Made by a program: the position numbers and the translations under genes. This document shows positions 7,585-56,888 of a stretch of 64,000 nt of DNA, piece after piece. The notes below the pieces were generated by a model. The model was not told where the DNA came from. It did no database searches and saw only the letters and a list, made by a program, of their open reading frames with translations. Numbering within the stretch: position 1 is the first letter of the stretch; the number at the start of each line of letters is the position of its first letter. This DNA is from Eledone cirrhosa. Lineage: Eukaryota. The DNA lies in assembly GCA_964016885.1 (NCBI GenBank), contig OZ024741.1:30442001-30506000 (forward strand), given 5' to 3'.

Positions 7585-7616
7585 GTTGGATGAGAAACGG
7601 GGAAAATGAGAAAGGG

Positions 7617-9627: not shown

Positions 9628-9842
9628 TGTGAAATTTTTCAAAAAATATTTTTACACAAATACGAATACGACACACCGTAAAGGGGTGCCGTACTATTTA
9701 CTAGTGAACCCCTGTATTAGGTGGGTCACTTCTTCTAAACTTTTATCAAATTTAAAACTTGAATAAAAGGTTTAGAACGGTTGAAAAAGAGGTAAAACGT
9801 TGAAAAAGACTGGAGGCGATAAGAAGCGTGGCTTCACCAACC

Positions 9843-9866
9843 AATAATAATAATAATAATAATAAT
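9843..9866. repeat. (AAT)8 between Tx1 copies A and B
   Basis: Direct reading. Confidence 0.95.
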
Positions 9867-10007
9867 GATTTCATTTATTGGCCACAAGGGCCGACATATA
9901 GGGGACAATACAAAAGACTGGGACAGTGGGGTTTTACAGAAAAATCGAGTAAACAATATGAATAAACAAAGTAACAATAACAAAGTAACAATAAAGTAAC
10001 AATAAAA

Positions 10008-13000: not shown

Positions 13001-13303
13001 ATTATTGTTCACGTCCAGGACCACCAACTTCCCGTCCGGGTCCCGGAAGATCGACCTTACCTCGAGATCCAGGCCTTTCCTAAACAGCACTGCCACCCCG
13101 CCTCCCATTCCCGGCCGGCTAACAGCTGCAAAGATCTGATAGTCGTCGAAAATGGGGGCTAGTGCGCGCGTGTCGGAAATCCATGTCTCGCTGACTGCAA
13201 TTACATCCATTTCTATAGACCTGAGGTCGTTGAGCAGGTGACCCTGCTTCCAGGACGATCCCAGGCCTCGAACATTTAAACGTCCTACTCTTAATACGGC
13301 CAT
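10008..13303 (-). pseudogene. Tx1 copy B ORF2, frameshifted, with an internal APE deletion
   Basis: LNVRGL, AVSET, IYAP, GDW; FRPITLLN, VRQGCPLS, AYADI; CPRC..HALVQC. Confidence 0.9.
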
Positions 13304-13334
13304 GTTGGCAGGTTAAACAGAGAGAGAGGAAGGT

Positions 13335-15233
13335 TTACTTATCTTCCGGGCTCTTGTGAAAGTCGGGTTGTTCGACCTCCATAGTTAGTGGGGTTTCTTT
13401 TGGGAACCTCTTTAAAAGCCTTGAAGTGGGTTTTACGTTCGGAGTTCCGACGTCCCGAGGAAAGCTGTCTCGTATTTCTTTGAATATGTCGAGCGACATT
13501 CGCACCAGAACCAAATCTTCCGGCACCCGAAATGTGCTCGATTTAAAAATTTCCCCCTCTTTTTGTATATTTTCACTTCGTGCTACGAGGGACATCAGTT
13601 CCTTGTTGGCCCTCCTGACGAGCACGAAGTTTTGTATGTTTTGTTGGTGTGATTTTATTTGTTTGCGAGGCTATGGTGGTGATGATTTTGGTGGTGTTGT
13701 TTCGGTTGTATCTGTATTTGTTGTGAGTGCGGTATCTGTGGTTTCAGATGTTTGTGTGTATATTTGTTCTTGCGTCTGTTTCAGTTGTTTGCGTTTGGGG
13801 GATTCTGGTGATGGTGGTGTTGATGTTGGTGTTATTGTAGAGATGTTTGCGGGGGTGGTGTCTGCGTTTTTTTATTATGGGTGCTTTTGTGCTTTGTTGA
13901 GTTTTTTTTTTTCTTTTTGTGTTTCATTTTTTGCATTTTGGGGGATTTTGGATTTCCCTCATTTTCACTACTGGTAGATGAGGGGTCTGTGTCTGTAAAT
14001 GTGCCTGTATGTATGTTTAAGGTTTTATTGGTGTGTGTATTTTTTGGCGGGAAGGGGAAATTTGACAGCTTTCCTCGTTTCGCCCCTGGGTGGTCATATG
14101 TTTGGTGGTGGTCTTTCTATTGGTGTTGTTGTTGGTGGTTTTGCCGGTGAATTTGTTGGTTGTGGTCCTCGCCCCGGCTTCGGCAGCAGTGGAGCCTTTC
14201 GACCCCTTGTCTCTTTCAGCAGTTGAGGGCAGAAGGCTCGCAAATGGGTTTTTTCCCCACAAACAAAACACTGCGGCCTTTTGCCTTCGGTCATAATGTG
14301 ATTGACAGTCCCATTCTGAAGGCGGATGTGGTCTGGGATTGTCTTCACATTCTCGGGCCTCATCTGGAGATGGATCTCCAGGTCAACCCCGGACCAGTCC
14401 TCTCTTGCCGTTCTGGTCACTTCTATAGGGTCTGTATCCGTCCCCTTCACAATCACACATCCCAGAAGCCACCACATGTCAACTCCTGGTGGGATTCTGG
14501 GAATGCGGAGGCGGGCCGTTCTTTTTCCCATGTGGGAGGGGTACATTATGACCTTGCTGGTTTTGCAAGGAGTCATAGCGTGTTTCATAGCGAGGGCTTC
14601 TGACTTGAACAACACCGAAATGGTGCCGTACTGTCTGCCCATCTGTATGTACTGGGTGTCTTCTCTGATGTACCTCAGCGCGACTTCGATATCTTCTTGT
14701 GGGTTTAACGCTGCCCTTTTGGTTTGTGCTGAGATGCATCTATAATGCACCGTTTTGCTCTCCACTGCCTCAATAGCTTCTACCGGGACAGTTAAGTTGG
14801 CACAAGTTTGCTCTTGCTTGATGAGCTTCCATGCCTGGGCCAACTTTTCATCTTTGTTTGAGAGGTCCATGTTGAAGCGTCGCCTCTTTTTTACTGCTCC
14901 CGCAGCGAAAGTGGTCTTGTTTTCGTTGGGGGTGTTGTTGACGTTGTTCTTGTTGGTGTTGTTGCTAGCACTGTCGCTGTTATCATTGTTGTCTCTGTTG
15001 CCATCGTTGTTCTCGGTGCAGTTGGTATTGTTGCTGTTGGTGTTGTCGCTATTTGCTTTCATGTTGATATTGCTGTTATATTTGTTATTTTTTTTTTTGT
15101 TATCTGTATTTTCGTTGTCGCTGTTACTGTCATTTTTTTCAAAATTAGAGTTCTTATTGGTATCATTGGTGTCTTTGTTTACCTTGTTTGTGGTGGTGTT
15201 TGTGTTATCAATGTGTGTTAATTTCGCTGACAT
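13335..15233 (-). pseudogene. Tx1 copy B ORF1
   Basis: Asn-rich N-terminus starting MSAKLTH; CCHC knuckle; C-terminal piece 13335-13625. Confidence 0.82.
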
Positions 15234-15238
15234 AAACC

Positions 15239-18200
15239 CACAAGTCAGCAATGCTCGGACACTGGACGAGTGCGTGCCGGACGGTTTCGTCACCCTGCGC
15301 GCATCTCGGATATACCCGGCTGACGGCACATCCATAGCCTGTAGAATTTATCCCGAACTGGCAAAGCTCCCCGGTAGCACTGCCAGGCCAGGGATTTCTG
15401 GAAGTTGTCCATAGGCCCCGGCACGGAAGTCCTTCCGAAGAGATTGGCTAGTTGATTTTCGTCGACGCCTAGAGTTTCTCCAAGTACGTCGTCGCTCTTT
15501 CCCTCCACTGATCCTCTATAGAACGCCAAGGTGGAGTTTCCACCGATGACATTGCCCGATTGGTCGAGGGCTGTGAGTGCCAGAAAACATTCCAGTCTCC
15601 AAGCGCTCCCTCTCGGTCTTCGCTTGACCCAGTACTGCAGCTCCGTCAAGGAGTCGAGCTGGGGAAAGACGTGTCTAGCAAACAGCGACCACACCTGATC
15701 ACCGTTGAGGAAGAGGTGGAGATGTCGTAGCCTGAGCGCGTGTCTGCGCATCATCAGCCACGGCATGCCCAACCCTCCACGTAGCGGGTGTTGACAGCAG
15801 ATGGACCGCCTGACCATCGGAGCGCATCTTTTCCACAAAAAGCGAAAGAGCAAACGTTCCAGCGCAGTCAGGCGGGGCTTAGGACGAGGTACGACGGTCA
15901 GGCGGTAGTAGATGACGGACGCGATGTACGCGTTAGCCACCTCCGCTCGACCTTTCAGGGATAGCTTCCTCTCGGCCCATTTCTGGGTGAGAGAAGCCAC
16001 CCTGCTCGTCACCTCGTCCCAGTTTTTGTCCGTCTGGAGGTCCGGACCGAACCAGACCCCTAGCAATATAACCGGTCCGTCCGTCCAGCGTCCGACGACG
16101 CTGTTGGACGGCATGGACCTGCCTCTCCAGGAGCCGAGCTGCAGGCCCACTGACTTTTCCTGGTTGATCATTGCTCCTGTCACCGCTTCGTAATCTTTTA
16201 GTGTAGTGCCGTCGCCTCGGTGTGTTTGGCGTTCGACACCACTACGGTGACATCGTCCGCATATGCTGACACGGATCTTCCGCATCCTAGTTCGCGCGGG
16301 ACCCCCCTCAACGTCTCCAGTTTGTGCAGTAATGGCTCGAGAGTCAATACGTACAATAGGGACGAGAGGGGACATCATTGGCGGACCGAGCGCATGATGT
16401 TGAACGGTTCAGAAAGGTGACCGTTCACTCTCACCACAGAGCAGATGTCGCTGTGCATGGCAGCGATCCAGCCTCTGAAGACGGACCCAAAGCCAGCCGG
16501 CCTCAGGACTGCCGCTAGGTAACGATGGTCGACCCTATCGAAGGCTTTCGACTGATCTAAATTTATCAAAGACCCACCCGTGCCAGGTTCCCTAGCTACC
16601 CTCTCTACGATGTATCGCATCAGGTGGAGGTTGTCGTGGATTGATCTGTCAGGAATGGCGCATGTATGCGCCTCTCCCACCAGACCACCAACGACAAGCG
16701 CCAACCTCTTTGCTAGCACCTTGGCCAAAATCTTGAACTCTGTGTTTAGCAGAGTTATGGGCCTAAAATTATCTATGTTATCCCCCTTGTTCGGATCCTT
16801 TCTCAGCAGCGCCACCGCTCCTCGGCTCACAGAGCTGGGAATTCTCCCGTTCTGTTGCCAGTTGCAGTAGACGTCCGCCAAGAGGCCTCCGAACAAGTCT
16901 GGCATTTGTACGTAAAGTTCATAGGGCAGACCATCCAAACCAGGCGATTTACCCCTTGTGCAGCCAGTCATTGCCTCCCGTACTTCAGCGGCTGTTATCG
17001 GCTTTTCGCAACACTCCGCCTCAGTGGCCGAGAGCCGCGGTAGTCCGTTGAGGTAGACACTAAAGTCCATCCCTCGATCCGGCCCGCCGCTGCCGCCGAA
17101 CAGTTGAGCGAAGTGTCGCTGAAAAGCTTCACACATTTGCCCGGGATCGAGTAGCATGCGCCTGTCGTGGTCCAACAAAGACCGGATCGTGGCTTTGTTG
17201 CCACGACGCGCCTCCGCCACTCGGGCCCATTGAACGGCTTTCACCCCCTCGTGTCTGAGAGCACGCACCCTAGCTCTGACAACGCAGCCTTCGTGCTTTG
17301 CATTGAAGAATTGGTCCGTGTAGCTGTCTATCTTGAATTGTGGACAGCTTATGCTAGACCTATCTATTTCCGTATTCTGAGTGAGGTCATTTTGAAATGG
17401 AGTGCAAAAGATGGGAAAGACCACTTACCTTACTTCTTCTCGCAGAGGAAGGATGGTTACACCATCCCTTTTCACTTGATCGTCTGGTGAAGAGACCGAT
17501 GAATCGCCCCTTCGGCTGGTCGTCGGCTCTTCTCTGAGTATATCTGAATATACTCTCCGGTTGAGTGTCCCTCCTAGGTCTCTGAAATCACCAACTGCGT
17601 TGGGGAATTTCGTTTTAATGTTTCTGTACTGTTTCTGTGCTATTTTTAGCAGTCTTATGTTCGTTGGTGTTTTGATTGGTGCTGGTATTCTGTAGTCGTG
17701 CTCTGAAATGTCTGTGTTCAATTATGTAAGTCATTAGTTTCTTGTGTGTATTTATTGCTGTGCATTTGTTTTTCTGGGGGTGGGGTGCGGTTCTGCTATT
17801 TTCTTGTCGTTGTTGCTGGGTGTGTGTGTTTTGTTGTGTTTGCGATGTTGGTGCTTGTGGTGGTGGTATTGAAGGTGTTGTTGTTGTTGGCAGTGGGGTT
17901 GCCGGTGGTGGTGATGGTGGTGCTAGTGGGGGTGGTGATGGTGTTGGTGGTGTTGCTGCTGTAAGTCTTTTTGCAGTAGCCTTTACTCTATTTTCGTTTC
18001 TTTCCACCCGTTTCGAAGGCGACGATGCGCTGCTTATGCGTTTGGGCCTTCTTGCGACATTTTGCCATCCCTCTCCCACCTCACACTACATGTCCGATTC
18101 TGTGAGGTCGGGGAGGGGTACTAGCCCAACTCTTTCACTTGTTGTTGTTGGTGATGTTTGCAGTGGAGTCTCTGTTGCCGCTGCAGTTGGTATTGCTGTT

Positions 18201-19824
18201 GTTGTTGTTAATACTTCCACAGCTGCTGCTGTTCTTGATTTCCGTGGTGTGGGTATGGGTTCCACGGACCTATCCTTCCTGGTTGCCGCCTGCCCTGTTG
18301 CTGGTAGAAGTGGAGCCGGTTTCGGAAGGGGTGGGGTTTTCTCCTTTCTCAGGGTCTTCTCATTGCAGAAGGCCCTGAGGTGAGTCTTCGATCCACAGCG
18401 AAAGCATTTCGGGCGTTTGCCCTCAACACCTATGGGCTGTTGAGTGCCGTTATCAAAGTCTATCACATCCGGGATAGCTTCGATGCACTCCTGGTTGGTT
18501 TGGATTAACCTTTCAATGGAGGTGCCGACCCAATTATCTCTTACTTTTTTCTGTACTTGCAGTACAGTTGTTTTGTCCTCGATTCCGACCAGGACACACG
18601 CGGCCAGCCAAGAAGGGGCCATCCCGGGGGGGGGGGGGGGACGTGAGTCAGTTTGACGGTCACAATTTTTTGTCCGCAGTAGGAGGGCACCAACACCATT
18701 TCCTCGCTCCTTAGGGTCACTAAGTATTGAGACTTTGCCTCCTGGGGTGTGGCAAAAAGCACGTCCACGGTGGCATATTTCTTGCCTTGGGTGATATGAG
18801 TTTTCCGCTGTCACACGGACCCTAATGCGTTTTGTATTTGAGCCTCTGAGTTGGAGTGACTTGTGAAATCCAACGGGATGTTGTGCTTATTGTACGGTAC
18901 GTGACCGTACAGTGCTGTTGGGTTTCGAAAAATGTTTCGGCTGCCTTGCAGATTGCTCGGTGTCCAGTTTTCGTCACCATCTTCTTTGCTTCCTGTAATT
19001 CCTCATTTGTTATAAGGATGGTTTCCAGGTTCTTTGCGATACCTGCAAACGAGATTAGTTTTTCTTTGTTGTTGTTGTTGTTGTTGTCGTCGTCAGAGCT
19101 GCTGTTACTTTTGTTGTTGCTGCTGTACTACGATTGCCGCCGCCGCTGTTGCTGTGGTTGTTGTTGTTGTTGTTGTTGTTTTGTTGCTGCTGCTGCTGCT
19201 GTTGTTGTTGCTGTTGCTGCTAATGCTGTTGTTGTTTATGCTGCTGCTGATGCTGTTGCGGCTGCTACTGTTGTTTTTATTTTCACTGTTGCTGCTGCTG
19301 CTGTTGTTATTACGGCTGCTACTGTTATTATTCATGACGTCAGACGAATGAAATGGGTTTTCGTATTTACCGCACACCTTTTTCGTCGTTGTCGTCGTCG
19401 TGGAGAAATGTTCCACGTTTTGCACGTGATTTTGGAAACTATTTTTCTTTACTGGCGTCGCCTGCGAAACAGAAGGGAGGGAGAGGGACACATTTAGAGA
19501 AGGGGGGGGGGGGGGGAGAGAGACAATCTTCTCTCTGGTGTAGTGACGATTGAGGAAGAAGAAGACGGAATGAGTGAGAGTTACTTGTGAAAATTCTTTT
19601 TTGTAGCCATGTTTTTTTTGGTTTAAAATAAATATTGGGCACAACACCCCAATAAGCGGTTATTTAACCCCGAAGGGCCAAATAACGGGCATAAATACCC
19701 CTCTCACGAGGAGGAGGGGGTTTTTGTCTACAATTTGGTTACAGTTTTAAATAATTTAGAATTGTTATAGCGGTTAAAATTTACTATACCTTATAGCGCC
19801 GAGCCTCCGTCAACCATGGCATTC
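15239..19824 (-). mobile_element. Tx1/L1-clade LINE copy C; 3' end and most of the APE domain deleted
   Basis: RT motifs in 16375-17424 and 15290-16378. ORF1 pieces at 17425-18814 with CFRCGSKTHLRAFC. The 5' end abuts (AAT)n at 19825. Confidence 0.9.
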
Positions 19825-20122: not shown

Positions 20123-20685
20123 TTTCGTTTCTGAATTTGTTTAGCAAGATTCTTTATTTGAAAACGTGTGTTGAAATCGATATTGTTATGCTTAGGGAGG
20201 GTCATGTTGCCATTAAGAAACACACGCACCAGTTACTTCCACTTCAATTTATTATAAATAAAATTTATGAATTTATAAATTTCCAGTTGGTTGGTTGGTT
20301 TCACAACCAGACGATTGTTCATATATTGTCAAAGTTCTTTCGTCACACATTTTCTGACCTCTTCAGTGACTGGGGACTATTTTCTTTGTTTTTGTGCCTC
20401 TCCTTTGTTCTGTCCTACGCCATCTTGTTTTTTGGCGAAGGACAGAGCAAAGGAGAAGCACAAAAACAAAGAAAATAATCCCAGTCACTGAAGAGGTCAC
20501 AGAATGTGTGACGAAAGAACTTTGACAATATATGAACAATCGTCTGGTTGTGGAACCAACCAACCAACCGGAAATTTATAAATTCCTAAATTTGTAAATT
20601 TAATTTATAATAAATTGAAGTGAAAGCAACTGGTGCGTGTGTTTCTTATTGGTAACATGACTCTCACAAAGTATAACAATATATA
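20123..20685. mobile_element. Fold-back insertion (Penelope pLTR-like) with ~245-bp inverted arms; relatives at 22975-23330, 33570-33840 and 63370-63640
   Basis: Arms ~20178-20423 and ~20433-20685 are near-complementary; flanked by (TA)n; contains a hammerhead core. Confidence 0.75.
20484..20526 (+). ncRNA. Minimal type I hammerhead ribozyme candidate (mirror copy on - at ~20326-20370)
   Basis: gtca-CTGAAGA-g-gtcaca/gaatg/tgtgac-GAAA-gaac-TT-tgac. Stem I is gtca/tgac, stem II is 6 bp, cleavage triplet CUU. Confidence 0.6.
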
Positions 20686-24752: not shown

Positions 24753-24949
24753 ATATATATATATATATATATTGTTATACTTTGGGAGGGTCATGTTGCC
24801 AATAAGATAAAGAATCTTGCTAAACAAATTCAGAAACGATATATATATATATATATAACGAAGGAAATGTGGTAAGGAACCAGGTGGACCATAACGCACC
24901 AAAGTACTCAATACTTAGGGTAGTAGAGTGGGTAATAGGAACAAGTAAG

Positions 24950-25043
24950 ACCCCGACGGCTGAGCTCAAGCCGTTTCGACGGCTAATCTGTACTGTATGA
25001 AAAATTAATTCTGGTATTTAAATAGCCGAACTTATCAAGGGGT
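24950..25043 (-). ncRNA. Type I hammerhead, U3-A8 variant (inverted pLTR copy)
   Basis: Reverse complement of 27811-27905. Confidence 0.7.
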
Positions 25044-25457
25044 AATTCCATATATGGTCAAAGAGATAATCACCAGGATTGGTCACATCACAAGTTAGTA
25101 GTAAATCTGTGATGGCAAGTTGGTGGGTGAAGGGGTAGCTAAACCTGCCAGTAGGAGAAAACGGGGAGAGGGGGTGGAGTAGACCCATTCATGCGTTGGT
25201 AGTGCCAGCTACAGCTGGGTGTGAGGTCAAAGAGGATACTGGGGAGGGGGAGGGGGAGGAGGTCGAAACGGTAAGTAGAACAATGAAAGGTAAAACTGTA
25301 AAAGGTACTGAGAGAGAGAAAAAATATAAGCAAAATCTGGTTACTCAGACTTAAGTCTATCGCTATTGCTAGGCTGAAGAAATACATAAATAAATAAATA
25401 AACAAATAAGTGAATAAAAGAATAGATAAATAAATTAAAAAAAAAAAAAAAAAAAAA

Positions 25458-26609
25458 ATGTTTCCTGCTTTCAGTGGTGGATTGTACCGTGATGATGGGC
25501 TCCTTACCCTTAAAGGATACGACTCCAGTAGTACAGATCGGGTCCGTAAACAATTAATCAGCTTCTTCCGCGACTGGGGATTTAAAATAACCCTACAAAC
25601 GTCCCTGACCCGAGTTAATTTCCGGGACGTTACCCTCGATCTCAATAATGACCTGTACTACCCATACAGGAAACCCAATGACAACCTGCACTACATCCAC
25701 CGCCGATCTAACCATCCCAGGAACATCACCAACAACCTGGTCAAAAACATCTCCCTCCGTATATCCCGTTTGTCAGCTAATGAGAAGATATTCGATGAAC
25801 ATGCGCCTTACAACAACCAGGCCCTCAAGCGGAGTGGTTTCCGGGAGGAAATATCCTACTGTCCAGCTCCCATTAGCGGAACCAGCAGGCGACACCGCCG
25901 CTCACGCAATGTAACATGGTTCAATCCTCCCCACAACGCTGAGGTGACAACTCCCATCGGGAACATTTTCTTTAGGCTCATTGAAAAACACTTCCCACCA
26001 CAACACCGCTACCACAACATAATTAACAAAAATACCATCAAACTCTCTTACAGCACTACACCTAACTTCGCACAAAACATCGTCTCCTCCAACAACAAAA
26101 AACTCAACCCCGATGGAAGAAACAACCTAAATAGCAGTGGAGAGCCGACTAGGAGGTGCAACTGTCCTGATAGATCCAGTTGCCCCCTCGACAACAGATG
26201 CAGAGACCGTAATGTGATCTACCAGTGCAACGTGAGCACAGACACCTCCAACAAAGCTTAAATAGGATTAACCGCATGCGACTTCAAGACCCGGCTATAC
26301 CAACACAGACATACCTTCCGAAACCCGGCCCGGCGTCACGCCACTACACTTTCGGGCCACATATGGGACCTCAAGGACAACAACATCAACTATGATCTCA
26401 CTTGGAAATTACTGTCCAGAGCCAATTCTTACACGGGAGGACGCCGTCCGTGCAATTTATGCTCGGAGGAAACATTACAAATGCTGTTTTCGACGGACCA
26501 ACTCCTAAACAAGAAAGAAGAACTTGTTACTGCATGTAAACACCGATTACGTAGGACTTACCTCGCCCTCAAACCCCATAATGACCGGGGGGGGGGGGGG
26601 GTAGACTAG
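25458..26609 (+). pseudogene. Penelope RT (C-terminal part) + GIY-YIG endonuclease, one in-frame stop
   Basis: GGLYRDDGL, FRDVTL, PYRKPN, WFNPP, IKLSYS, CNC...CPLDNRC, then A*IGLTACDFKTRLYQH. The copy at 55520 has TAT (Tyr) where this one has TAA. Confidence 0.9.
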
Positions 26610-27810
26610 GGCTATAACACCCCACTTGCCTATTTTGTATTGGGTAACCCCTGCTTGCCTATGGAGACGTAAGATCTTCTTTTACATTCTTTTATCGCTT
26701 CCTCTATATTTCTTCCTTCCCCCCATCCCTCCCTAGTCCTTCTACCCCAGTTCCCTTTCTTTGTCGTCGTCTTTTTCTCGCCCACCCGAGGTAGCCTATC
26801 GGTCCCTATAGCTTCAGCACCCCACCTCCTTCCCTATTCTATGATAGATGTGGCTGACTCCGCTTTTTATAGCAGAGGTGTTAGACTTCGGATACTCGCC
26901 CCCTTCTCCGACCGCTGTCCCCTTTTTCCGTGCCTTCTATATTTCTTAGTGGCATCTTTGCTTAAATTTCTCGTTTATCCAGTATCTCTGTTTTCTTTTT
27001 CCCTTTTTGTTGGGGGGGGTGTTCCTGTATTAATTTTCCGTTCTTTACTTTTACTTCGTACGATCTTTCATGTAGCTTGTATAAGACTTTTTGTTTCGTG
27101 GCGGTACCCTTAGAGTTAGCACTAGTATTTTTTTGCGAGACCCTGAATTATATTCTCGTACTAGTTTACTTTCTTGCATTCGGTGGTTGCTGGCCCTGTG
27201 TTTGGGGTAGAAACCTTTATTATTTTCGTGGTAGTCTCTTTAGTATTCTGGCCCCCCTTTTGTTGACCCGTCACCGTACGATACACGCACTTATACCTCG
27301 TATAAGGGTCCCTTAATTTCCGTCCCACCTAGTTTATTTCTATTATTATCATTTATTTTTTTATTCTACATTATATATATATATATATTTTTTTTTATTT
27401 TTTTTTTTTTTATTTTAAATTTATTTATCTATTCTTTTATTCATTTATTTGTTTATTTATTTATTTATGTATTTCTTCAGCCTAGCAATAGCAAGAGACT
27501 TAAATCTTAGTAACCAGATTTTGCTTATATTTTTTTTCTCTCTCAGTACCTTTTACAGTTTTACCTTTCATTGTTCTACTTACCATTTCGACGTCCTCCC
27601 CCTCCCCCTCCCCAGTATCCTCTTTGACCTCACACCCAGCTGTAGCTGGCACTACCAACGCATGAATGGGTCTACTCCACCCCCTCTCCCCTTTTTCTCC
27701 TACTGGCAGGTTTAGCTACCCCTTCCCCCACCAACTTGCCATCACAGATTTACTACTAACTTGTGATGTGACCAATCCTGGTGATTATCTCTTTGACCAT
27801 ATATGGAATT

Positions 27811-27905
27811 ACCCCTTGATAAGTTCGGCTATTTAAATACCAGAATTAATTTTTCATACAGTACAGAATTAGCCGTCGAAACGGCTTGAGCTCAGCCGTC
27901 GGGGT
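27811..27905 (+). ncRNA. Type I hammerhead, U3-A8 variant with enlarged stem II loop
   Basis: acccc-TTGATAA-gttcggcta...tagccgtc-GAAA-cggc(ttgagctca)gccg-TC-ggggt. Predicted cleavage after GUC at 27900. Confidence 0.72.
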
Positions 27906-27915
27906 CTTACTTGTT

Positions 27916-27997
<82 letters not shown>

Positions 27998-28510: not shown

Positions 28511-29415
28511 AGTTATATATATATATATATTTGTTTATCAGGTCCCGCCGAGGACAATATAGTATTCAGCCTCGAATGGAATTGCATAATGGTGATAAGA
28601 AAAACAGCAAAACACATGTAAAAACGATGTTTAGTTTCTGTTTATATGAGAAAGAAATTCAAACATCCATTATAGTAGGGACGACTAATCTCGGCCATAA
28701 TCTCCCTGTATAACGGCTCTGTCTAACACAAGCTTTGTGGACAGCAGCTTCCTACATCAGCACATACAATTTAAATTTAAACCTGTTTAAGAATAACAAT
28801 AGCAAACATTTGAAATAAGGGTATGACATCTGACGATGGATTGTTATGTTTCCCAGGCATAATTATATACCTGTGTGATTTTGTGTATGTGCATGTGTAT
28901 ATGCCTTTATGTTCTCGCTCGCAACTACGTGTGTATGTATGAATTATGTATGAAGCAAGTTGGTATATTAAATGCAGGGAGGGTGGGGTTATTGGAAGAT
29001 TAACATTCTACTATATGTGTATACGATTTATATTGAACTGCCATCGTTGTCATACAGAGAAACTTCATATATTCAACGAAACAATGTATCCGTTACCAAT
29101 AAAACTGAAATTCTATTGAGCTACCGACAATGAAGAACGCTTTTAGCAAATTTTAAGTAATTATTTGGTAAGAATATTCAATAGGTTACACTGAATACAT
29201 AGATTCGACTTAGATGTTAGGAATACCGAGAGGTGATCATGCTTGTAAAGCATACCTTAGTTATGACCAACACTACCGCTGAGGCAACGGAGAAATTTGA
29301 ATTAAAGGAATTTCAAAGTATTTCTAATCACACACACATATATATATCCATCCATACGTCGATAGGCACACACACTTATATATATATATATTTATGTATA
29401 TATATATATATATAT

Positions 29416-30165
<750 letters not shown>

Positions 30166-31084: not shown

Positions 31085-31332
31085 GATGAAATCGAAAATG
31101 CAACTGGAGTCTATATTTAAAAATATGCATTTGCCTCCTTTACCGGTTTCGCAGTTCTTGTGCTTTTCAAAAGTAGAATTGGGATGGAGGGTTTGTGATT
31201 TGTATCGCATCTGGAGCAAAACCACAAACCCTCCATCTCAATTCTACTTTTGAAAAGCATAAGATCTGTGAAACCGGTGAAGAACCAAATAATTATTTTT
31301 AAATAAAGACTCTAGTTGCATTTTTGATTTCC
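31085..31332. repeat. Fold-back insertion with ~115-bp arms; family fragments at 44915-45050 and ~55080-55130
   Basis: 31085-31202 is complementary to ~31216-31332. Confidence 0.85.
31138..31173 (-). ncRNA. Minimal type I hammerhead, U3-A8 variant
   Basis: ctt-TTGAAAA-gca/caagaac/tgc-GAAA-ccgg-TA-aag. Confidence 0.62.
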
Positions 31333-31378
<46 letters not shown>

Positions 31379-31381
<3 letters not shown>

Positions 31382-31562
31382 CGAAGGAAGTCTGGTAAGG
31401 GACCAGGTAGGTCATACATAACGCACCAGAGTACTCAATACTTTGGGTAGTAGACTGGGTAATAAGAAAATGATCAAGGCCACGACGGCAGAGCTCAAGC
31501 CGTTTCGAAATAGCCATCGAAACGGCTTGAGATCTGCCGTCGGGGTCTTGAACATTTTCCTA
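31379..31562. repeat. Short asymmetric fold-back of the Penelope pLTR 3' end
   Basis: The long arm starts aacgaaggaag; the short arm ends ttttcctat; the turn is at ~31512. Confidence 0.8.
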
Positions 31563-33895: not shown

Positions 33896-34088
33896 GGAGT
33901 AAGTAAGACCCCGACGGCTAAGCTCAAGCCGTTTCGACGGCTAATTCTGTACTGAATTAGCCGTCGAACCGGCTTGAGCTCAGCCGTCGGGGTCTTACTT
34001 ACTCCTATTACCCACTCTACTACCCTAAGTATTGAGTACTTTGGTGCGTTATGGTCCACCTGGTTCCTTACCACTTTTCCCTCGCTAT
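33894..34088. repeat. Short asymmetric fold-back of the Penelope pLTR 3' end
   Basis: Short arm 33894-33950; long arm 33953-34088. Confidence 0.85.
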
Positions 34089-35007
34089 ATATACATATAT
34101 ATATATATTGAGAGAGAGATAGTTTAGATAATTCCATAGATAGATTGATATATATACATAAATACAGACACACACACATGCACACACCCACACATATACA
34201 TATATATATACACACACAGACACCCCCCCCCCACACACACATATATTTATATATATATATGTATATATGTATTAACAGAAATTAACCGACGTTTACACGG
34301 AAGGAACGTCGTTAAACAGACTAAACTGTTTCCCTGTTTGAAACCACCTCTTTAGAGGTGTGTGGTGAATTCGATCTATATCTTAATCATTGCCTGTTAT
34401 TCAGTGAATGAGATTCCCTAATAGTTGCATTTTAATTTTCTCAATACTGTAAACAACGATCCCGGATTCTTTAATTCACTCATAACTGAAGATGTGATAT
34501 GATGTACAGGTAGGACACTAAAACCAAATATTTGTCATCACATGGATGCATCTGACTTTGCCAAGTCTAAAAGTAAAAAAAAAAAAAAAAGCGAAACTCG
34601 TCACATTAGGAAGAATATCACGATTATGCCACCTATTTTGCTCCACTACCAGCGCATTGTGCCTCAAAAATACTCAACAACAGCTAAGCTGTTACAAACG
34701 GTTATAATCAGAAAGATATCTGACAGATTCCTTAAATGAGTTTGGTGCACACGTGCACTTCGAACTCAGGCGGCTGAATCAAGACAACATCAAACATCTT
34801 TCGTCTCTTCGTTTCAGATTTCAGATAATAAAATATTTCGTCGCTTATAAACGCATATTGCTGATTCCCTGTCTTCCTACTCTTCAGACATGACTCTATC
34901 CTGTAAGTTTGCGACCGATCGGGACATCAGGCTGCCTGCGAATGCTAAGCAGAAAGACTTTCCAACAGAAGCAATTCAACTGGCTTCGAAAGGTAGATCG
35001 AACAAAG

Positions 35008-35710: not shown

Positions 35711-35776
35711 TTTATATTCTGCTACGTAGCCTCCCCTGATTGCACACGGGATAAGCATATATATATATATATATAT

Positions 35777-35930
35777 AACGAAGGAAATGTGGTAAGGAAC
35801 CCGACGGCAAAGCTCAAGCCGTTTCGACGGCTAATTCTCGACTAAATATCTGGACTAACATTCTTATTTCGTATAGAATTAGCCGTCGAAACGGTTTGAG
35901 CTCAGCCGTCGTGGTCATACTTGTTCCTAT
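35777..35930. repeat. Short fold-back of the Penelope pLTR 3' end (tail internally deleted)
   Basis: aacgaaggaaatgtggtaaggaac joined directly to cccgacgg; inverted arm at 35876-35930. Confidence 0.8.
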
Positions 35931-37779: not shown

Positions 37780-39446
37780 TAATGAATTAGAAGCCCTTAA
37801 AGTCGAAGTACAAAGTATGAATGATAATACTGTAGTTAGTCGATAGTAGGAATGAGAGTTCACAATGAAAATGAATCAATTGAGGAAGAAGTAACCTAAA
37901 TTTGCACCTAATGTTGAAGAATCCACAAAATCTTTCTTAAATCAATTTAGAATTGCAAAAGAGCATACACAATTTGAGATGGTTAAATGAATTTGACATA
38001 AGTTATCTAATGAACTAAAACAATTTCAAAGGAGGAGATTAAAGAACACGTTAGAAATATGCCCGACTGGAAGTTTAATGGACCCAATAACATCCAAGGA
38101 TTCTGGTTGAAAATATTATAAGTGGCCATTCTAGGCCAGGGAAGCATCTAATGATTGTGCAGTACAAAATGTTGGATGGTTGAATGAAATATAACTTTGG
38201 TAATGAAAGATAAAAGAAAAGTTTGTTAGTTAGAAATTACAGGGTGGTTGCTTGAGTTTGTTTTGGAAGGTGTTGACTGGCATTTTGTGTATGAACTCTC
38301 GCTTTAGAATGAGATGCTACATGTTGAGCAGAAGGGTGTAGGAAAAAATCCCTGGGAATCGAAGACCATCTTTCTGTCGCCAAAGCGATCAAGAATAACA
38401 GCAAAGACGTCAAAAGGGTTTATGCACGACTTGGATAGAATTAAGAAAGGCTTTGACATAGTCTTACATTCGTGGGTACTGTAGTGTTTAAAAACATTTG
38501 GGGTAGCAAACAGCTTTATTAATGCAACGGAGTCTAGTATGTCTTTGCAGAAGCCAAACCTGTATGTAGGAAATAAACAGCTAGGTGTGGTCAATATAAT
38601 AAGAGGAATGTTTCAAGGAGATTCCTTCTCATCATTACTCTTTGTGATTGCCATGATTCTATTATCAATGGTCTCAGGTCAAAAATATATTAGCTATCAG
38701 ATGGAAAACAGAGGAACTAAGATCAATCATCTTCTTTTCGTGGACGATATGAAGCTCTTTGGCAGAAATGAATATCAGGCTGGCTCACTGGTCAAAACTG
38801 TCTACTGGTGTTGCGGCGACATTGGGATGGAGTTTGATGTGGACAAGTGTGCCACCCTAAAGAGTGATAAACATGTAGAAGTGGTGGAAAGTCGATTGGT
38901 GACCGTAAGAACAGTGGGTGCAAATATTTGGGCATTCTAGCGCTTGACTAAGTTCTAAATGAGAAGATGAAAGGAAATGTGAAGTTAAACTCTCTAAAAA
39001 GTTTAGAGCTGCTACTGAAAGCGAAACTGAATTGGAAGAACTTAATTACCGCTATCAGTGTCTGGGCTGTCTGCTATTATATATAATACGGGTACTTTGA
39101 AGAAGAAATAGAGAAGTTGAATAGGATAACGCAAACGAAAATTGTTGACAATGGTGCATTGCACCTAAAGTCAAATATCGTCAGGCTGCGGAACGTAGGA
39201 GGTCGTGGATCTTGAGTGTGTATAATCTGTGACTAACGAATGTAAATCCTTAGATTCGTATTTGGCCAGTAGTAAAGAAGAACTTTAAAGTTAGTTGCCC
39301 AAATCTTAGGCATTTGTAGTGAGACCTTCGAAGTAAGGCTACTAGCTAAGAAACTGAGCACCATTACATGGTCAATTTGAAAGAGAATCATCGGAGGTAA
39401 AAGAAGGTTCTTCATGGAATTGGTTGACAAAAGGTGATCTTAAGAG

Positions 39447-43963: not shown

Positions 43964-44858
43964 ATAGGAAAAAGTACGACCCCGGCGGCAGAGCTCAAGC
44001 CGTTTCGACGGCTATTTCTGAACTAATTTAGAATTTTTAGCCTGGTGAATAATTAGCCAAACTTGTCAAGGGGGTACTTCCTTATATGGGAAGATTGTAG
44101 TTGTCAAGAGGATTGGTTAAAATGTATTGTAAACATAAATAAGTCTATCATGGTATTTGGTGGGAGGTAGGGGTGGCTGAACTTGCCTGTAGAACAATAG
44201 GGATTGAGTGGAGCGGTCAGGCGTTGAAAGTGATATGTATACACCAGATTCTAAGGATAGTGTATGAAGTGAAGGAATGAGGTCATAGAATAGGTAAATC
44301 GAATGAGAGTAGGAGATAATAAAAGATACTAGAAAGAAAGAAAATATATATAAAATTAGATAGTGAGAAATGAATTTAAAAAATCACAATGCTATCTTAC
44401 AATTACAGGTTAATAAGTTGAGAATAGAAAAAAACTTGTAGAAATTACAAAACTGATAAAAAATTAAAGGGGTTTAACACATCTGCTATAAGTAGTTAGT
44501 AAAACGTATTAGGCCAATTCTATCTTAAAATACAGGGGTGGGGGTACTGATGCTACAGAGGCCCGATGGGCTGCATCGGGGCAGGCGAAAGGAGAAAAGC
44601 AGACATATTTGCGTTTACAATAAATTTTAACCAATCCTCTTGACAACTACAATCTTCCCATAAAAGGAAGTACCCCATTGACAAGTTCGGCTATTTATTC
44701 ACCAGGCTAAAAATTCTAATTTAGTCCAGAAATATCCGTCGAAACGGCTTGAGTTCTGCCGTCGGTGTCATACTTTTTCCTATTTCCCACTCTACTACAC
44801 TGAGTTTGATTACTCTGGTGCGTTACGATCCATCTGGTTCCTTACCTCAATTCCTTTG

Positions 44859-44861
<3 letters not shown>
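43964..44861 (-). mobile_element. Non-coding Penelope 3' fragment with an inverted pLTR; U3-A8 hammerheads at 43979-44075 (-) and 44672-44768 (+)
   Basis: Homologous to 56000-56888; core TTGACAA; short arm on the left, long arm on the right. Confidence 0.8.
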
Positions 44862-44912
<51 letters not shown>

Positions 44913-45893: not shown

Positions 45894-45948
45894 TTTTTGA
45901 AGTTCTTTTAATATATATATATATATATACATGCATCTACATACACAC

Positions 45949-47471
45949 ATGGTAGACTTAGTAAAACGATTCTTGATAGAATTATACCGGAAATTAGAAG
46001 TTTGGCCCCTCTTGCACTGTGGAACAATTCTTTCGCGGTGATTGATTGGTTCAACGGCATATGTAACATGGAACATTGCCGTTTTATCCAATTCGACATC
46101 AATAATTACTACTCCTCCATCACTTTACCACTTCTCCTTAGAGCTATCAATTTCGCTAAAACACTCACAGTGGTTAAGGATTTCGAAATTGATGTCATCC
46201 TCAATGCCCGAAAGTCAGTGATTAATTTCGACGACTCTATTTGGATAAAAAAATCCAATAGTACCCCATTCGACGTGAGTATGGACGCCAGTGATTCTGC
46301 GGAAGTTACTGATCTTATCGGCCTTTTCCTTCTTTTCTGTATCAAGGACGAATTCCCCAACGCGGGCGGTGGTTTGTACCGTGATGATGGTCTTTTGACC
46401 ATGACTAAGTGCGGACCTCGTGCTTGCGACAGGTTCAGAAAAGAACTCACAGCCTTCTTTAAAGGCTTCAACCTCTCTATACAGGTTTAGCCCAATCTCT
46501 CGGTCGTTAATTACCTCGACGTTACCCTCAATTTATTGAATGGGTTGTATTACCCGTATAGTAAGCTGAATGATACGCTTATTTACATAAGTAACCATTC
46601 CAACTATCCTGCCAGCATAACCAAGAACCTGGTAAGAAACGTTTCGTTGAAGCTTTCCCGTCTTTCCACCAACGAGCGTATTTTCATTGACCATTCCACT
46701 TATTACAATGAAGCTCTTGCTCGAAGTGGATTTGTCGATAAGGTAGCATATACAGAGTACGAAAATAGACCTAGAAGAAATAGATCCCGTCGCATTTGTC
46801 GGTATAACCCACCATATAATATGGAGGTGGCCACACCTTTAGCTAAGATCTTTCTTTCCCTTATTACGAAGCATTTTCCCCCTACATATAAATATAGTAA
46901 CATTTTTAATAGAAATACTATTAAATTTTCTTACTCTACGACTCCTAAGGTTGCACTTAACATCACAGCTTCAAATTTAGCTAAACTACCTAGCCGTAGG
47001 AACACGTGCAACCCTGTAGTTAGTACTAACTGTAATTGTAGGATTCGGGTTGATTGCCCCCTATCCGGGAAATGCCTCTCTAGTAACATTGTCTACAAAT
47101 GTAAGGTTGTAACACTCATGTCCCGTAGGGCCTACATAGGGTTAACCGCCAATAGATTCAAGCAGCGTCTTTACATGCATATCCATTCTTTTCGTTACCC
47201 TCTAAGAAGGAATATGACGTCACTTTCAGCTTATATCTGGAGTCTAAAAAACAACCACACCCAATATAAGTTATACTGGGAGATCCTAGCTAGGGCTAGA
47301 TCGTATAACGGAAATAAAAGACCATATGACCTCTGTGCCGCTGAGGCCATGGACATTCTCTACGCCACAGACCACATCTTAAACAAAGAATCTGAGACAA
47401 TTTCGGCTTGTAAACATAAATTGCACAAAACTTTCCTGTATTACAGCCCCACGTTATATCCTAACGGATAG
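45949..47471 (+). pseudogene. Penelope RT + GIY-YIG ORF, truncated, with a stop at 46488-46490
   Basis: ORFs 46002-46490 and 46536-47471 are in the same frame. Confidence 0.88.
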
Positions 47472-47651
47472 TACGATTTATACGTGGATATTTTACGTCT
47501 TGATGTGGGAGCTAAGTATATGTTTTGTTTATACCATTACTTATTTGCATAGCGAACGTTTCCACGAACCAAAGTATCGTATTCCTATCTTCCTCCGGTT
47601 GCAACGTTTTTTGAAATATCCACTTCTGCGTTTACAGATGGACTTTGTTAA

Positions 47652-47698
47652 TTTCAGAAGATCCCGTTAAGGGTGAAAGCAGCGATTCTTTGCTTAAA
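47652..47698 (+). ncRNA. Degenerate hammerhead downstream of the Penelope ORF
   Basis: ttt-CAGAAGA-tccc/gttaa/gggt-GAAA-gca...tgc-TT-aaa; U4 is changed to A. Confidence 0.4.
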
Positions 47699-49187: not shown

Positions 49188-49276
<89 letters not shown>

Positions 49277-49280
<4 letters not shown>

Positions 49281-51075
49281 AACCAGTAAGACCCCGACAG
49301 CTGAGCTCATGCCGTTTCGACGGCTAATTCTGGACTAAATGAAAATTTATCCTGGTATTTAAATAGCCGATCTTCTCAAGGGGTAATTCCATATATGGTC
49401 AAAGTGATTGTCAAAAATCAGTAGTAATTCTGTGGTTGCAAATTAGTAGGGGAGATGGTGGCTAAACCTGCCAGTAGGAGAAAGAGGGGAGGGGGTGGAG
49501 TAGACCCAATCAAGCGTTGGTAGTGCCAGCTACAGCTGGGCATGAGGTCAAAGAAGATACAGGGGAGGGGGAGGGGGAGGAAGTCGGAACGGTAGGTAGA
49601 ACAATGGGGGGTAGAAATATATAGGAAAGAAAAAATACTGAGAGTGAAGAAAAGCAAATAAGTGTAAAGAAAAAAGTAAAGTAAATTAAATTCTACGACC
49701 TAGGTCTCAGGCTATTGTTAGGCTAGAATAAAATAAAGAAAGAAAGAAAGAAGTAAAGAAAAAAATAAATAAAGAAATAACGAAATAAGTAAAAGAACTA
49801 GGTGGGACGAATTAGGCAAGGACCCTTTTAAGATGTATAAGTACGTAAATGATACGGTGACGGGTCAACAAAAGGGGCCAAAATACTAAAGAGACTACCA
49901 CGAAATAAACAATAAAGGTTTCCATCCCGGGCCAGCAACGACCCAGTGCAGCAAAGTGAACTTGTACGAGATAATAATTCTGAGTCCCGAGAAAAATATA
50001 TACTAATGCTAACTCTAAAAGATCTAAAACAAGCTACATGAAAGTTCGTACGAAATAAAGGTAGAATACGGAGAAATAAATTCAGAATCCACCCCGCCCA
50101 GAAGAAAAGCGAAGTAAGAAATACTGAAACGAAAAAATAAGGCATAAGTGCCACTAAGAAATATAGAGGGCACAGAGAATAGTGGGAGCGGTCGGGAAAA
50201 GGGGGCAAGTATCCGGGGTCTAAGCCAACTGCTATAAAGGGCGGAGTCCGGCAAATCTATCATAGACTAGGGGAGGGGGTGGTGGGGGTACTAAGGCTAC
50301 ATGGGGCCAAAGGGCAGCCTCGGGTGGGCGATAAAAGACGCCGACAAAGGAGAAGAGCTGGGGTAGAAGGACTAAGGAGAGAGGGGGGAAGGAAATAAAG
50401 GAAGCGATAAAAGAATACAAAGAAGATCTTACGTCTTCCTTGGCAAGCAGGGTCCTTGCCTAATTCGTCCCACCTAGTTCTTTTACTTATTTCGTTATTT
50501 CTTTATTTATTTTTTTCTTTACTTCTTTCTTTCTTTATTTATTTTATTCTAGCCTAACAATAGCCTGAGACCTAGGTCGTAGAATTTAATTTACTTTACT
50601 TTTTTCTTTACACTTATTTGCTTTTCTTCACTCTCAGTATTGTTTCTTTCCTATATATTTCTACCCCCCATTGTTCTACCTACCGTTCCGACTTCCTCCC
50701 CCTCCCCCTCCCCTGTATCTTCTTTGACCTCATGCCCAGCTGTAGCTGGCACTACCAACGCTTGATTGGGTCTACTCCACTCCCTCCCCTCTTTCTCCTA
50801 CTGGCAGGTTTAGCCACCATCTCCCCTACTAATTTGCAACCACAGAATTACTACTGATTTTTGACAATCACTTTGACCATATATGGAATTACCCCTTGAG
50901 AAGATCGGCTATTTAAATACCAGGATAAATTTTCATTTAGTCCAGAATTAGCCGTCGAAACGGCTTGAGCTCAGCTGTCGGGGTCTTACTGGTTCTTATT
51001 ACCCACTCTACTACCTCAAGTATTGAGTACTTTGGTGCGTTATGGTCCACCTGGTTCCTTACCACATTTCCTTCG

Positions 51076-51078
<3 letters not shown>
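49277..51078 (-). mobile_element. Non-coding Penelope 3' region with ~550-bp inverted arms; U3-A8 hammerheads at 49291-49384 (-) and 50891-50984 (+)
   Basis: 49279-49826 is inverted at 50450-50996. The middle is homologous to ~26650-27310. Core TTGAGAA. Confidence 0.88.
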
Positions 51079-55144: not shown

Positions 55145-56884
55145 GCTCTAATGCGACACCGCCGCTCACGGAACTTAACGTGGTTCAATCCTCCTCACAA
55201 TGCCGAGGTGGCAACACCTATCGGGAAAATCTTCTTTAGGCTCATCGAAAAACACTTCCCACTCCAACAGCGGTACCACAACATAACCAATAAAAACACC
55301 ATCAAACTCTCCTACAGCACCACACCTAACTTCGAACAAAACATCGTCTCCTCAAACAACAAAAAACTCAACCCCTATGGAAGAAACAAACTAGACATCA
55401 GTGGAGACCCGACCAGGAGGTGTAACTGCCCTGATAGATCTAGGTGCCCCCTCAACAACAGATGCCGAGAACGTAACGTGATATACCATTGCAACGTGAG
55501 GACGGACACCTCCAACAAAGCTTATATAGGATTAACCGCTTGTGAGTTCAAGATCCGGCCCTACCAACACTGACATACTTTCCGAAACCCGGTCCGGCGA
55601 CATGCCACTACACTTTCGGGCCACATCTGGGACCTCAAAGATAATAATATAACCTACAATCTCACTTGGAGCTTACTGTCCAGAGATAACTCTTACACGG
55701 GAGGATGCCGTCCGTGTAACTTATGCTCGGAGGCAACATTACAAATGCTGTTTTCGAAGGACCAACTCCTAAACAAGAAAGACGAACTGGTAACCGCATG
55801 CAAACACAGATTGCGTAGAACTTATCTCGCCCTCAAAACCCATAACGACCCGGGTGGGTTGACAAGGGGTGATACACCGCCAATTGCCGAATAAGTTAGG
55901 GGAAATCCCAGCTTACATAGCTAGACGTACCTCTTTTCTTTTCCTCTATGTTTTCTTCCTCCCCCCGTCTCATCTTATCACTTCCTTCCACCCCCATCTT
56001 CCTCCTCGTCTGTTTTTTCCCTTTCGCCTACCCTGATGCAGCCCATCGGTCCTCTGTAACCTCAGTACCCCCCACCCCGGTAATTTTATGATAGAATTGG
56101 CCGATTACGCTTTACTAACTACTTATAGCACATGTGTTAGACCCCTATATTTTGGTATCTTTTTTTGTTACTACTCCAATTCTACAATTTCAAAATTTCT
56201 TATTTAGTATTTTCTATTCTCAACTTATTTACCTGTAATTGTAAGATAGCATTGGCGGAATAAGCTTTACTTACTATTTATAGCAGCTGTGTTAGCCCCC
56301 CCCTGAAAACTTTGCATTATATATTTCACTTCTACAATTTCTTATTTAGTATTTTCCATTCTCAACTTATTAAACTTTTCTATAGCTTTGCCGTACAAGC
56401 AACACCTACTAATTATAGCAGCTATCTCTAGACTCGACTGTTTTTTTGTTTTTTTTTTAAATTCATATCTCACTATCTAATTTTTTGATATATTTTTTTT
56501 ATTTTCATTATCTGCTACTCTCATTTGACTTACCTATTCTTTAAACTCCCCTCCACCTTTTTCTCCAGACAATTTTTCGACTTTTCATACACTATCTTTA
56601 GAATCTGCTGTATAAATTTCCCTTTCCACGCCTGACTGGCTTTACTCACTCCCTCAGTGTTCTACAGGTAAGTTCAGCCACCCCTACCTCCCACCAAATT
56701 CCATGATAGATTTATTTGTGTTTACAACAAATGTTGCCCAATCCTCTTCACAACTACAATCTTCCCATATAAGGAAGTACCCATTGACAAGTTCGGCTAT
56801 TTACTTACCAGGCTAAAAATTCTAATTCAGTCCAGAAATAGCCGTCAAAACGGCTTGAGCTCTGCCGTCGGGGTCATACCTTTT

Positions 56885-56888
<4 letters not shown>
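55145..56888 (+). mobile_element. Penelope fragment (GIY-YIG part + 3' pLTR), relative of 24857-27917; hammerhead at 56779-56874 with GAAA>AAAA
   Basis: WFNPPHN, IKLSYSTT, CNCPD..CPLNNRC, AYIGLTACEF. Ends ttttcc-(TA)n. Confidence 0.88.

What the first reader, a model, noticed from the sequence alone, without database searches (positions are those of the whole stretch)
27811..27905. Penelope pLTR family with a U3-A8 variant hammerhead and an enlarged stem II loop
Seen: the motif acccc-TTGA[N]AA-stem II-GAAA-cggc/gccg-TC-ggggt occurs in seven copies from three diverged subfamilies (24950, 27811, 43979, 44672, 49291, 50891, 56779; some carry point mutations). Within TTGANAA, position 7 varies (T, C, G) while the rest is fixed, and the ~40-nt stem II loop diverges while cggcta/tagccg is largely kept. 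Known: the hammerhead core is CUGANGA with a C3-G8 pair, position 7 is free, U3-A8 is a rare compensatory form, and Penelope pLTRs carry type I hammerheads that are usually minimal. Inference: this is a selected ribozyme with a true 5-bp stem III that a CUGANGA pattern search would miss. The stem III loop holds the palindrome TGAGCTCA, which may allow dimer cleavage.
Basis: partly seen in the sequence, partly recalled or inferred. Interest (0 to 1): 0.8.

Follow-up and report, generated by a model that had tools for sequence, protein, structure and literature searches.

The report
Retrotransposon promoter likely splits hammerhead ribozyme
This is a hammerhead-ribozyme-shaped motif with an already-published rare core, carried by a very abundant Penelope-type jumping gene, and the ends of thousands of copies suggest that the element's transcription likely starts inside the motif's large loop, so its normal message would carry only half the ribozyme; cutting activity is untested.

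Summary
The motif is real. It is a type I hammerhead fold with a U3-A8 core in the pLTR of a young, very abundant Hydra-clade Penelope-like element (717-aa RT-EN ORF, 3.5-kb tandem units). U3-A8 cores in PLE hammerheads are already published (S. mansoni, about 1,300 hits). Across nine subfamilies the stems and most of the core stay fixed while N7, loop II and flanks diverge. The 3-8 pair is not enforced: 24 of the first 100 listed copies have a C3·A8 mismatch. Only 4 bp of stem III are conserved. The enlarged loop II has a likely explanation. Only 24 of 143 copies carry both halves; most stop within a few bases of one A in loop II, in an initiator-like TYAGT. An untemplated G often precedes that A (4,854 G against 800 A genome-wide), the known trace of a copied 5' cap. 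Transcription therefore likely starts inside the ribozyme: capped mRNA would hold only its 3' half, and the whole ribozyme would form only in read-through RNA. No cleavage or RNA-end data were available. Verdict: new variant of a known kind.

The parts
27811..27905 (+). Type I hammerhead fold with U3-A8 core (whole motif)
27811..27831 (+). 5' half: stem I 5' strand, UUGAUAA core, G10.1, 2-nt bulge, stem II 5' strand; lies upstream of the inferred start site
27832..27869 (+). Loop II (38 nt): sequence turns over between subfamilies, length mostly 37-39
27857..27863 (+). Initiator-like site; A27860 is the inferred capped +1, where truncated copies begin, often after an extra G
27870..27905 (+). 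3' half: stem II 3' strand, GAAA, stem III with TGAGCTCA palindrome (27887-27894), predicted cut after C27900, stem I 3' strand; can instead form an AGCCGU-CGAA-ACGGCU hairpin
27906..27917 (+). Element 3' end (nearer inferred RT start, about 17 nt past the cut site), followed by the (TA)n target
25458..26608 (+). 5'-truncated Hydra-clade RT/GIY-YIG ORF fragment with an internal stop at 26259-26261
26609..27810 (+). 3' UTR / pLTR body upstream of the hammerhead
24858..25456 (-). Inverted 5'-truncated arm of the same insertion, with a full hammerhead copy (about 24950-25043) and the roughly 83-nt tail (farther inferred RT start)
43967..44870 (.). Inverted pair of pLTR copies of a second subfamily (N7 = C; point changes in core and stems)
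49276..51078 (.). Inverted pair of pLTR copies of a third subfamily (N7 = G)
56768..56886 (+). pLTR copy with a degenerate core (GAAA changed)
33896..34090 (.). Short inverted pair of 3'-half-only copies, both arms starting at or near the inferred +1
35775..35927 (.). Short inverted pair of 3'-half copies truncated in loop II
31378..31560 (.). Short inverted pair of 3'-half copies

Best explanation
The motif is a U3-A8 type I hammerhead fold in the pLTR of a Hydra-clade Penelope-like retrotransposon, and the element's capped transcript likely starts at an A inside loop II, so the ordinary mRNA would carry only the 3' half and a complete, probably weak ribozyme would form only in read-through RNA. 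Steps: (1) Shown: the motif, the element anatomy, and 5' ends of genomic copies clustering at one loop II A with an excess of untemplated G. (2) Inferred: that A is a Pol II start and the G is the copied cap. (3) Inferred from PMC11167929: the RT starts internally about 17 and about 100 nt past the cut site and copies the mRNA's own 5' end back to the cap, which would give the tens of thousands of short inverted pairs in (TA)n; longer copies would need read-through into a downstream pLTR. (4) Predicted: the half-ribozyme mRNA folds a GAAA-hiding hairpin and keeps its cap. (5) Untested: read-through RNA self-cleaves, as monomer or palindrome dimer, possibly with protein help; cleavage seems not to be needed for mobility.
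For: Anatomy: tandem 3,531-bp units with a 717-aa ORF, ATG about 190 nt past the cut site; RWR, DKT, CxCX5C, CxxC/CxH motifs and (TA)n targets match the Hydra definition (one search read against PMC8557442). Ends: 24 of 143 junction-unselected copies are full; 76 end at +1 to +8, 20 appear to end at -1 to -5, and 9 further up (6 of these at -7, chance matches to the inverted arm). Exact 3'-half 31-mer 45,368 against 5'-half pattern 6,149 (different patterns, lower bounds). Base before +1 genome-wide: T 15,563, G 4,854, C 4,140, A 800; G and A are both untemplated. All 30 G loci examined are truncated at that point, and 18 of 30 are not explained by the inverted arm. Control: G precedes +2 in only 16 of the first 100 of 6,691 matches (counted by hand). 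Local test 8 of 9 against 13 of 34, p = 0.009. An extra G marks capped full-length L1 5' ends (PMC11702581, passage). An Inr-like TYAGT is kept at about the same distance from the core in all 9 subfamilies while the rest of loop II turns over. The MFE of the RNA from +1 holds the alternative hairpin in 3 of 4 short folds and all 3 array folds. The 5'-half core and stems are conserved although they lie upstream of +1.
Against: No RNA data: no raw reads were offered and the one RNA run laid nothing on the pLTR. 5' ends are spread, and more end at +2 (22) than at +1 (9); an estimated 8,800 truncated copies have T before +1, so some extend a few bases upstream. In the older subfamily only 4 of 30 central matches show G before +1, and several copies reach -11 to -20. 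The TATA-like TATTTAAA is not conserved. Cleavage is doubtful in part of the family: C3·A8 in 24 of 100 listed copies, and those folded (4 copies) are predicted to adopt the alternative hairpin. Covariation is one CpG-type pair. The copies used for conservation were picked with fuzzy core patterns, which favours invariance.
Confidence: 0.6

Rival explanations
1. An ordinary selected, active pLTR hammerhead. The pile-up of 5' ends comes from RT stalling or fold-back at RNA structure in loop II, not from a start site.
For: Stems and core conserved over 9 subfamilies; MFE is the hammerhead fold; junctions are spread over about 14 nt and often palindromic; U3-A8 is reported active in vitro (PMC3088659, section 8).
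Against: Stalling does not predict a G excess specific to one position. The boundary is shared by subfamilies whose loop II sequences are unrelated. The 3-8 pair is broken in successful lineages.
Confidence: 0.2
2. A catalytically decayed hammerhead kept as a protein-binding or promoter scaffold: the shape is conserved for RT binding or transcription, and no cleavage occurs even in read-through RNA. This is compatible with the start-site inference.
For: All four Y3/R8 states occur; C3-G8 is no more frequent in the C3 background (12 hits against an extrapolated 1,500, 0.8%) than U3·G8 in the U3 background (62 against an extrapolated 4,550, 1.4%). Genomic 3' ends lie beyond the cut site, so the templates were uncut. 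Anole PAc hammerhead mutants still insert in vitro, and no RNA ends were seen at its cut site (PMC11167929). A second Hydra-like family here has a U4A core in 20 of 23 scored copies.
Against: U4 G5 A6, A9, G10.1-C11.1, GAAA and UC are invariant and N7 is free, which is the catalytic-core pattern. U3-A8 is kept both in the older O1 subfamily and in the youngest arrays.
Confidence: 0.17
3. Chance resemblance to a hammerhead in a repeat, multiplied by transposition.
For: Folding z-score is only -1.05; no Rfam match; copies are not independent.
Against: Position matches published PLE/Hydra hammerheads; conservation contrast 15 of 16 against 2 of 37.
Confidence: 0.03

Closest known systems
Hydra-clade PLE hammerheads (Craig et al. 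2021, PMC8557442, File S2)
   Same: Type I hammerhead near the 3' end/pLTR; protein motifs; (TA)n targets.
   Different: All 25 Hydra rows of File S2 have a CUGANGA core, a 3-10 nt loop II and a 1-3 nt loop III. Here the core is UUGANAA, loop II is mostly 37-39 nt, loop III 7-9 nt, the unit 3.5 kb and the tail about 83 nt.
S. mansoni Cercyon U3-A8 min-HHR (Cervera and de la Pena 2014, PMC4209133)
   Same: U3-A8 core in PLE pLTRs, missed by a CUGANGA descriptor; many solo and inverted copies.
   Different: That family is described as minimal hammerheads. This one has a real 4-bp stem III, a large loop II and, by inference, a start site inside it.
Anolis Poseidon PAc (Frangieh et al. 2024, PMC11167929)
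   Same: Two internal RT start sites bounding a tail; AT-rich target; hammerhead not needed for insertion in vitro.
   Different: PAc has C3-G8, no stem III is listed, and its ORF begins in stem II. Here the ATG is about 190 nt past the cut site.
Promoter-ribozyme overlaps: D. virilis Penelope internal promoter (PMC2377424), T. cruzi L1Tc Pr77/HDV (PMC3383444, search listing only), NbRZ1 retrozyme LTR (PMC12029980)
   Same: Promoter and ribozyme share the terminal repeat or 5' end.
   Different: In NbRZ1 the start lies upstream of the cut site and the transcript self-cleaves. In Penelope the start is 46 bp before an intron whose end meets helix I (PMC4209133), so the transcript holds the ribozyme. 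Here the inferred start cuts the ribozyme in two.

Membership tests
Hammerhead ribozyme (type I) | Three helices around the core, ends in stem I | tested here: met
   (94.9% of cells paired; slid controls 18-53%)
Hammerhead ribozyme (type I) | Core U4 G5 A6 N7, A9, G12 A13 A14, A15.1-U16.1, H17 | tested here: met
   invariant in the majority letters of 9 of 9 subfamilies, N7 free
Hammerhead ribozyme (type I) | Watson-Crick 3-8 pair | tested here: inconclusive
   U3-A8 in 74, C3·A8 in 24, U3·G8 in 2 of the first 100 of 6,149 matches; met for the 27811 copy, not family-wide
Hammerhead ribozyme (type I) | Loop I-loop II tertiary contact | not tested
   a distal stem I with an internal loop is predicted; no contact was examined
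Hammerhead ribozyme (type I) | Site-specific self-cleavage | not testable with these tools
   needs an in vitro assay or RNA-end data
Hammerhead ribozyme (type I) | Match to Rfam hammerhead models | tested here: not met
   (motif alone) and the 150 rows shown; the long loop II and variant core may explain it
Penelope-like element, Hydra clade | Single ORF, RT with C-terminal GIY-YIG endonuclease | tested here: met
   717 aa with RT-like YRDD and C-terminal YIG motifs read from the sequence; best homologue carries GIY-YIG; Pfam finds nothing in the query itself
Penelope-like element, Hydra clade | RWK-like and DKT motifs, CxCX5C linker, CxxC/CxH, no CCHH | tested here: met
   RWR, DKT, CNCPDRSIC, CNLC, CKH read by eye in P0001 against PMC8557442
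Penelope-like element, Hydra clade | (TA)n insertion, tandem/inverted pLTR structure, tail | tested here: met
   (68 short ends and 62 tail ends into (TA)n of 141 scored)
Penelope-like element, Hydra clade | Placement in the Hydra clade by RT phylogeny | not tested
   no tree with reference PLE proteins was built
Penelope-like element, Hydra clade | Canonical CUGANGA hammerhead; length generally under 3 kb | tested here: not met
   UUGANAA core, 3.5-kb unit; these are typical traits, not the diagnostic ones
Capped Pol II start site | Sharp 5' boundary with untemplated G in retrocopies | tested here: met
   weaker in the older subfamily
Capped Pol II start site | Capped RNA 5' ends mapped at the site | not testable with these tools
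   no raw RNA reads offered

The most novel reading that the evidence does not exclude
The promoter is built into loop II to make the hammerhead conditional. Capped mRNA carries an inert half; read-through RNA carries the whole ribozyme. The two halves can also reassemble, either between the two ends of one transcript or between RNAs through the GAGCUC palindrome (cofold -27.7 against -16.3 kcal/mol for the separate halves), so read-through RNA would cut the capped mRNA 41 nt from its cap. That would be a natural split hammerhead acting as an RNA-level brake or unit-length processor for a retrotransposon.
Probability: 0.2. Interest if true: 0.8.

Novelty: new variant of a known kind. Interest (0 to 1): 0.52.

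Why it matters
What PLE hammerheads do is an open question. If the start site lies inside the ribozyme, this family separates two RNA classes by design, which gives a direct test of whether the hammerhead processes tandem read-through RNA while sparing the mRNA cap. Tens of thousands of cap-terminated retrocopies would be in vivo support for internal RT initiation, shown so far in vitro for one element. Natural U3-A8, C3·A8, U3·G8 and C3-G8 versions on nearly one scaffold offer a ready series for asking whether catalysis matters for spread. Descriptor searches for CUGANGA with short loops miss this family.

Tried and rejected
Rfam scans: nothing relevant; the window list is dominated by microsatellite matches to miRNA models. 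Covariance model R1 was built on a structure string that I mis-registered by 7 columns; it was never used. Base-pair probabilities for the alternative hairpin used a wrong index and are void; one search has the corrected values. Position labels are shifted by one; one search replaces it. RNA evidence: run X1 laid no contig on the pLTR and one on the 3' UTR; a missing cover proves nothing. TATA box in loop II: present in young subfamilies only, so dropped as a required element. Splice-acceptor reading of TTTAG/TCC: rejected, because junctions fall at the A and no fixed upstream exon appears. A cap signature in the second Hydra-like family: only 3 of 48 copies start at the candidate site, too few. 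An upstream non-AUG extension (frame open 67 codons before the ATG) was not followed up. Earlier findings: none returned. Papers not held: the two RNA-journal studies of 3-8 exchanges that I recalled, and Lunse et al. on PLE hammerhead dimers; the latter may list similar variants. The host species was not established.

Full report
Observation. The 27811 copy reads stem I, UUGAUAA, G10.1, a 2-nt bulge, a 6-bp stem II, a 38-nt loop, GAAA, stem III, UC, stem I, with the predicted cut after C27900. The three-way junction is the MFE, though no more stable than shuffles (z = -1.05). Four of 7 copies pass a strict descriptor. Rfam does not recognise the motif.

The element. The window copy is the 3' end of a 5'-truncated insertion with an inverted arm, set in (TA)n. 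Intact relatives form tandem arrays with a 3,531-bp period; the ORF is 717 aa from the first ATG, about 190 nt past the cut site. The protein shows RWR, DKT, CxCX5C, CxxC and CxH motifs and no CCHH, which matches the Hydra clade as defined in PMC8557442 (passages). This assignment is by motif; no tree was built. Pfam finds nothing in the protein; 2,049 relatives scored E <= 1e-20 among 8,000 candidates, most of those listed about 40% identical.

What is already known. U3-A8 cores occur in nature and were shown active in vitro (PMC3088659, section 8). They are reported in S. mansoni PLE pLTRs, about 1,300 hits (PMC4209133, parts 1-2 of 4). All 25 Hydra rows in File S2 of PMC8557442 have CUGANGA cores and short loops, so this architecture differs from the published clade members. 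In the anole element PAc, RT starts internally at two sites, the hammerhead needs protein, and hammerhead mutants still insert (PMC11167929, parts 1-2 of 4).

Is it selected? I gathered 111 distinct copies holding both halves and sorted 110 into nine subfamilies by flank words. In the 5' half, 15 of 16 stem and core positions are invariant, against 2 of 37 flank and loop positions; N7 takes all four bases. The copies were picked with fuzzy core patterns, which inflates this contrast, although the older subfamily was reached through its 3' half and loop. On 16 representative rows one stem II pair changes on both sides (G-C to A-U, 5 rows); both changes are CpG-type transitions and the rows are related, so this is weak. 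The fifth stem III pair is a mismatch in 6 of 9 subfamilies; GAGCUC is kept in all. The 3-8 pair is not enforced. Of the first 100 of 6,149 genome matches, 74 are U3-A8, 24 C3·A8 and 2 U3·G8 (counted by hand). Of 12 C3·A8 loci fetched, 10 share the flanks of two lineages, so the state is inherited. G8 versions total 74, of which 12 are C3-G8, with no excess in the C3 background. U3·G8 looks like the state of subfamily M (13 of 14 copies), but most of those came from the G8-directed search. The 4 C3·A8 copies folded prefer an alternative hairpin that hides GAAA (P about 0.92), against 0.12 for 14 copies of the window's subfamily.

Why loop II is large. Most copies lack the 5' half. Among 143 copies not selected on their junction, 24 are full; 76 end at +1 to +8 counted from an A in loop II, 20 appear to end at -1 to -5, 9 further upstream (6 of them chance matches to the inverted arm), and 14 at +11 or later. 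Genome-wide, the base before that A is T 15,563, G 4,854, C 4,140, A 800. T and C are template letters; G and A are not. All 30 G loci are truncated exactly there; 12 could take the G from the inverted arm and 18 cannot. Scaled, that is about 2,900 G against about 720 A (20 A loci examined). Before +2, G is the rarest of three letters (16 of the first 100 of 6,691). Locally, G precedes 8 of 9 junctions at +1 against 13 of 34 elsewhere (p = 0.009). An extra G at the 5' junction is the known mark of a copied mRNA cap in L1 (PMC11702581, passage). An initiator-like TYAGT (my label, from recalled consensus) sits at this A in all nine subfamilies at about the same distance from the core, while the rest of the loop turns over. 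Against this: the ends are spread, more fall at +2 than +1, many have T at -1, the TATA-like box is not conserved, and in the older subfamily only 4 of 30 central matches show the G. No RNA data could be had.

Mechanism. Of 141 scored 3' ends, 68 stop about 17 nt past the cut site and 62 about 100 nt past it, each running into (TA)n; in the insertions read by eye they form the two arms of inverted pairs. By analogy with PAc these are two internal RT starts. With a cap 41 nt upstream of the cut site, RT acting on the mRNA's own 5' end would yield exactly the short inverted pairs that dominate the genome (3'-half 31-mer 45,368 matches). Long copies would need RNA that reads through a downstream pLTR, and only that RNA holds both halves. 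RNA starting at +1 folds the GAAA-hiding hairpin in most MFE folds. The separated halves are predicted to reassemble (-27.7 against -16.3 kcal/mol), and the whole motif to dimerise through the palindrome (-62.7 against -46.2). All 3' ends lie beyond the cut site, so the copied templates were uncut there, and C3·A8 lineages spread well; cleavage is therefore probably not required for mobility. Whether it happens at all is untested.

Novelty. Hammerheads in PLE pLTRs, U3-A8 cores, promoters in pLTRs (PMC2377424 and PMC3846280, passages; PMC6765202, passages) and internal RT initiation are all in print. I found no report of a start site inside a PLE hammerhead (the last returned nothing); this library lacks most subscription papers, and Lunse et al. 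could not be read. In NbRZ1 the transcript is cut by its LTR ribozyme (PMC12029980, section 5). I also saw part 1 of 5 of the bioRxiv retrozyme preprint (its supplements are closed) and passages of PMC6155905; neither changed the reading. The supplements of PMC4209133 were not opened and may show related U3-A8 architectures. Verdict: a new variant of a known kind, interest 0.52.

Noticed in passing
window 45912-47790 (+), motif about 47650-47700: A second Hydra-like PLE family (51% identical over 330 aa at the C-terminus) has a hammerhead-like motif whose core reads CAGAAGA (U4A) in 20 of 23 scored copies, with a short loop II; a family-wide non-canonical core.
   Followed up: partly
L051-L052 (G000:C1:437197500-437217300): Four full 3,531-bp units differ by one base in an ABAB pattern, which suggests duplication of a two-unit block, a dimeric template or an assembly effect.
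   Followed up: partly
L051:2756-2957: The ORF frame is open for 67 codons upstream of the first ATG, starting within stem III; an out-of-frame ATG lies in the tail.
   Followed up: no
window 27800-27810 with 27906-27922: Predicted distal extension of stem I beyond an internal loop; the nearer 3' end of copies falls in its 3' strand.
   Followed up: partly
window 4373-18886 (-): Three tandem, degenerate LINE-like elements with long upstream ORFs and endonuclease/RT-like ORFs, 70-86% alike in matched blocks; family names not tested.
   Followed up: no
window 1796-2596 (+) and 38485-38940 (+): Fragments of another RT-bearing non-LTR element.
   Followed up: no
window 60332-62186 (-): ORFs that look like a Helitron helicase/replication protein by recalled motifs; not tested.
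   Followed up: no
window about 47900-49170: An inverted pair of another PLE-like fragment with a degenerate endonuclease-like C-terminus.
   Followed up: no
window 20387-20468, 29409-29736, 31148-31272, 57551-57840: Long near-perfect inverted repeats or hairpins, possibly MITE-like or fold-back insertions.
   Followed up: no
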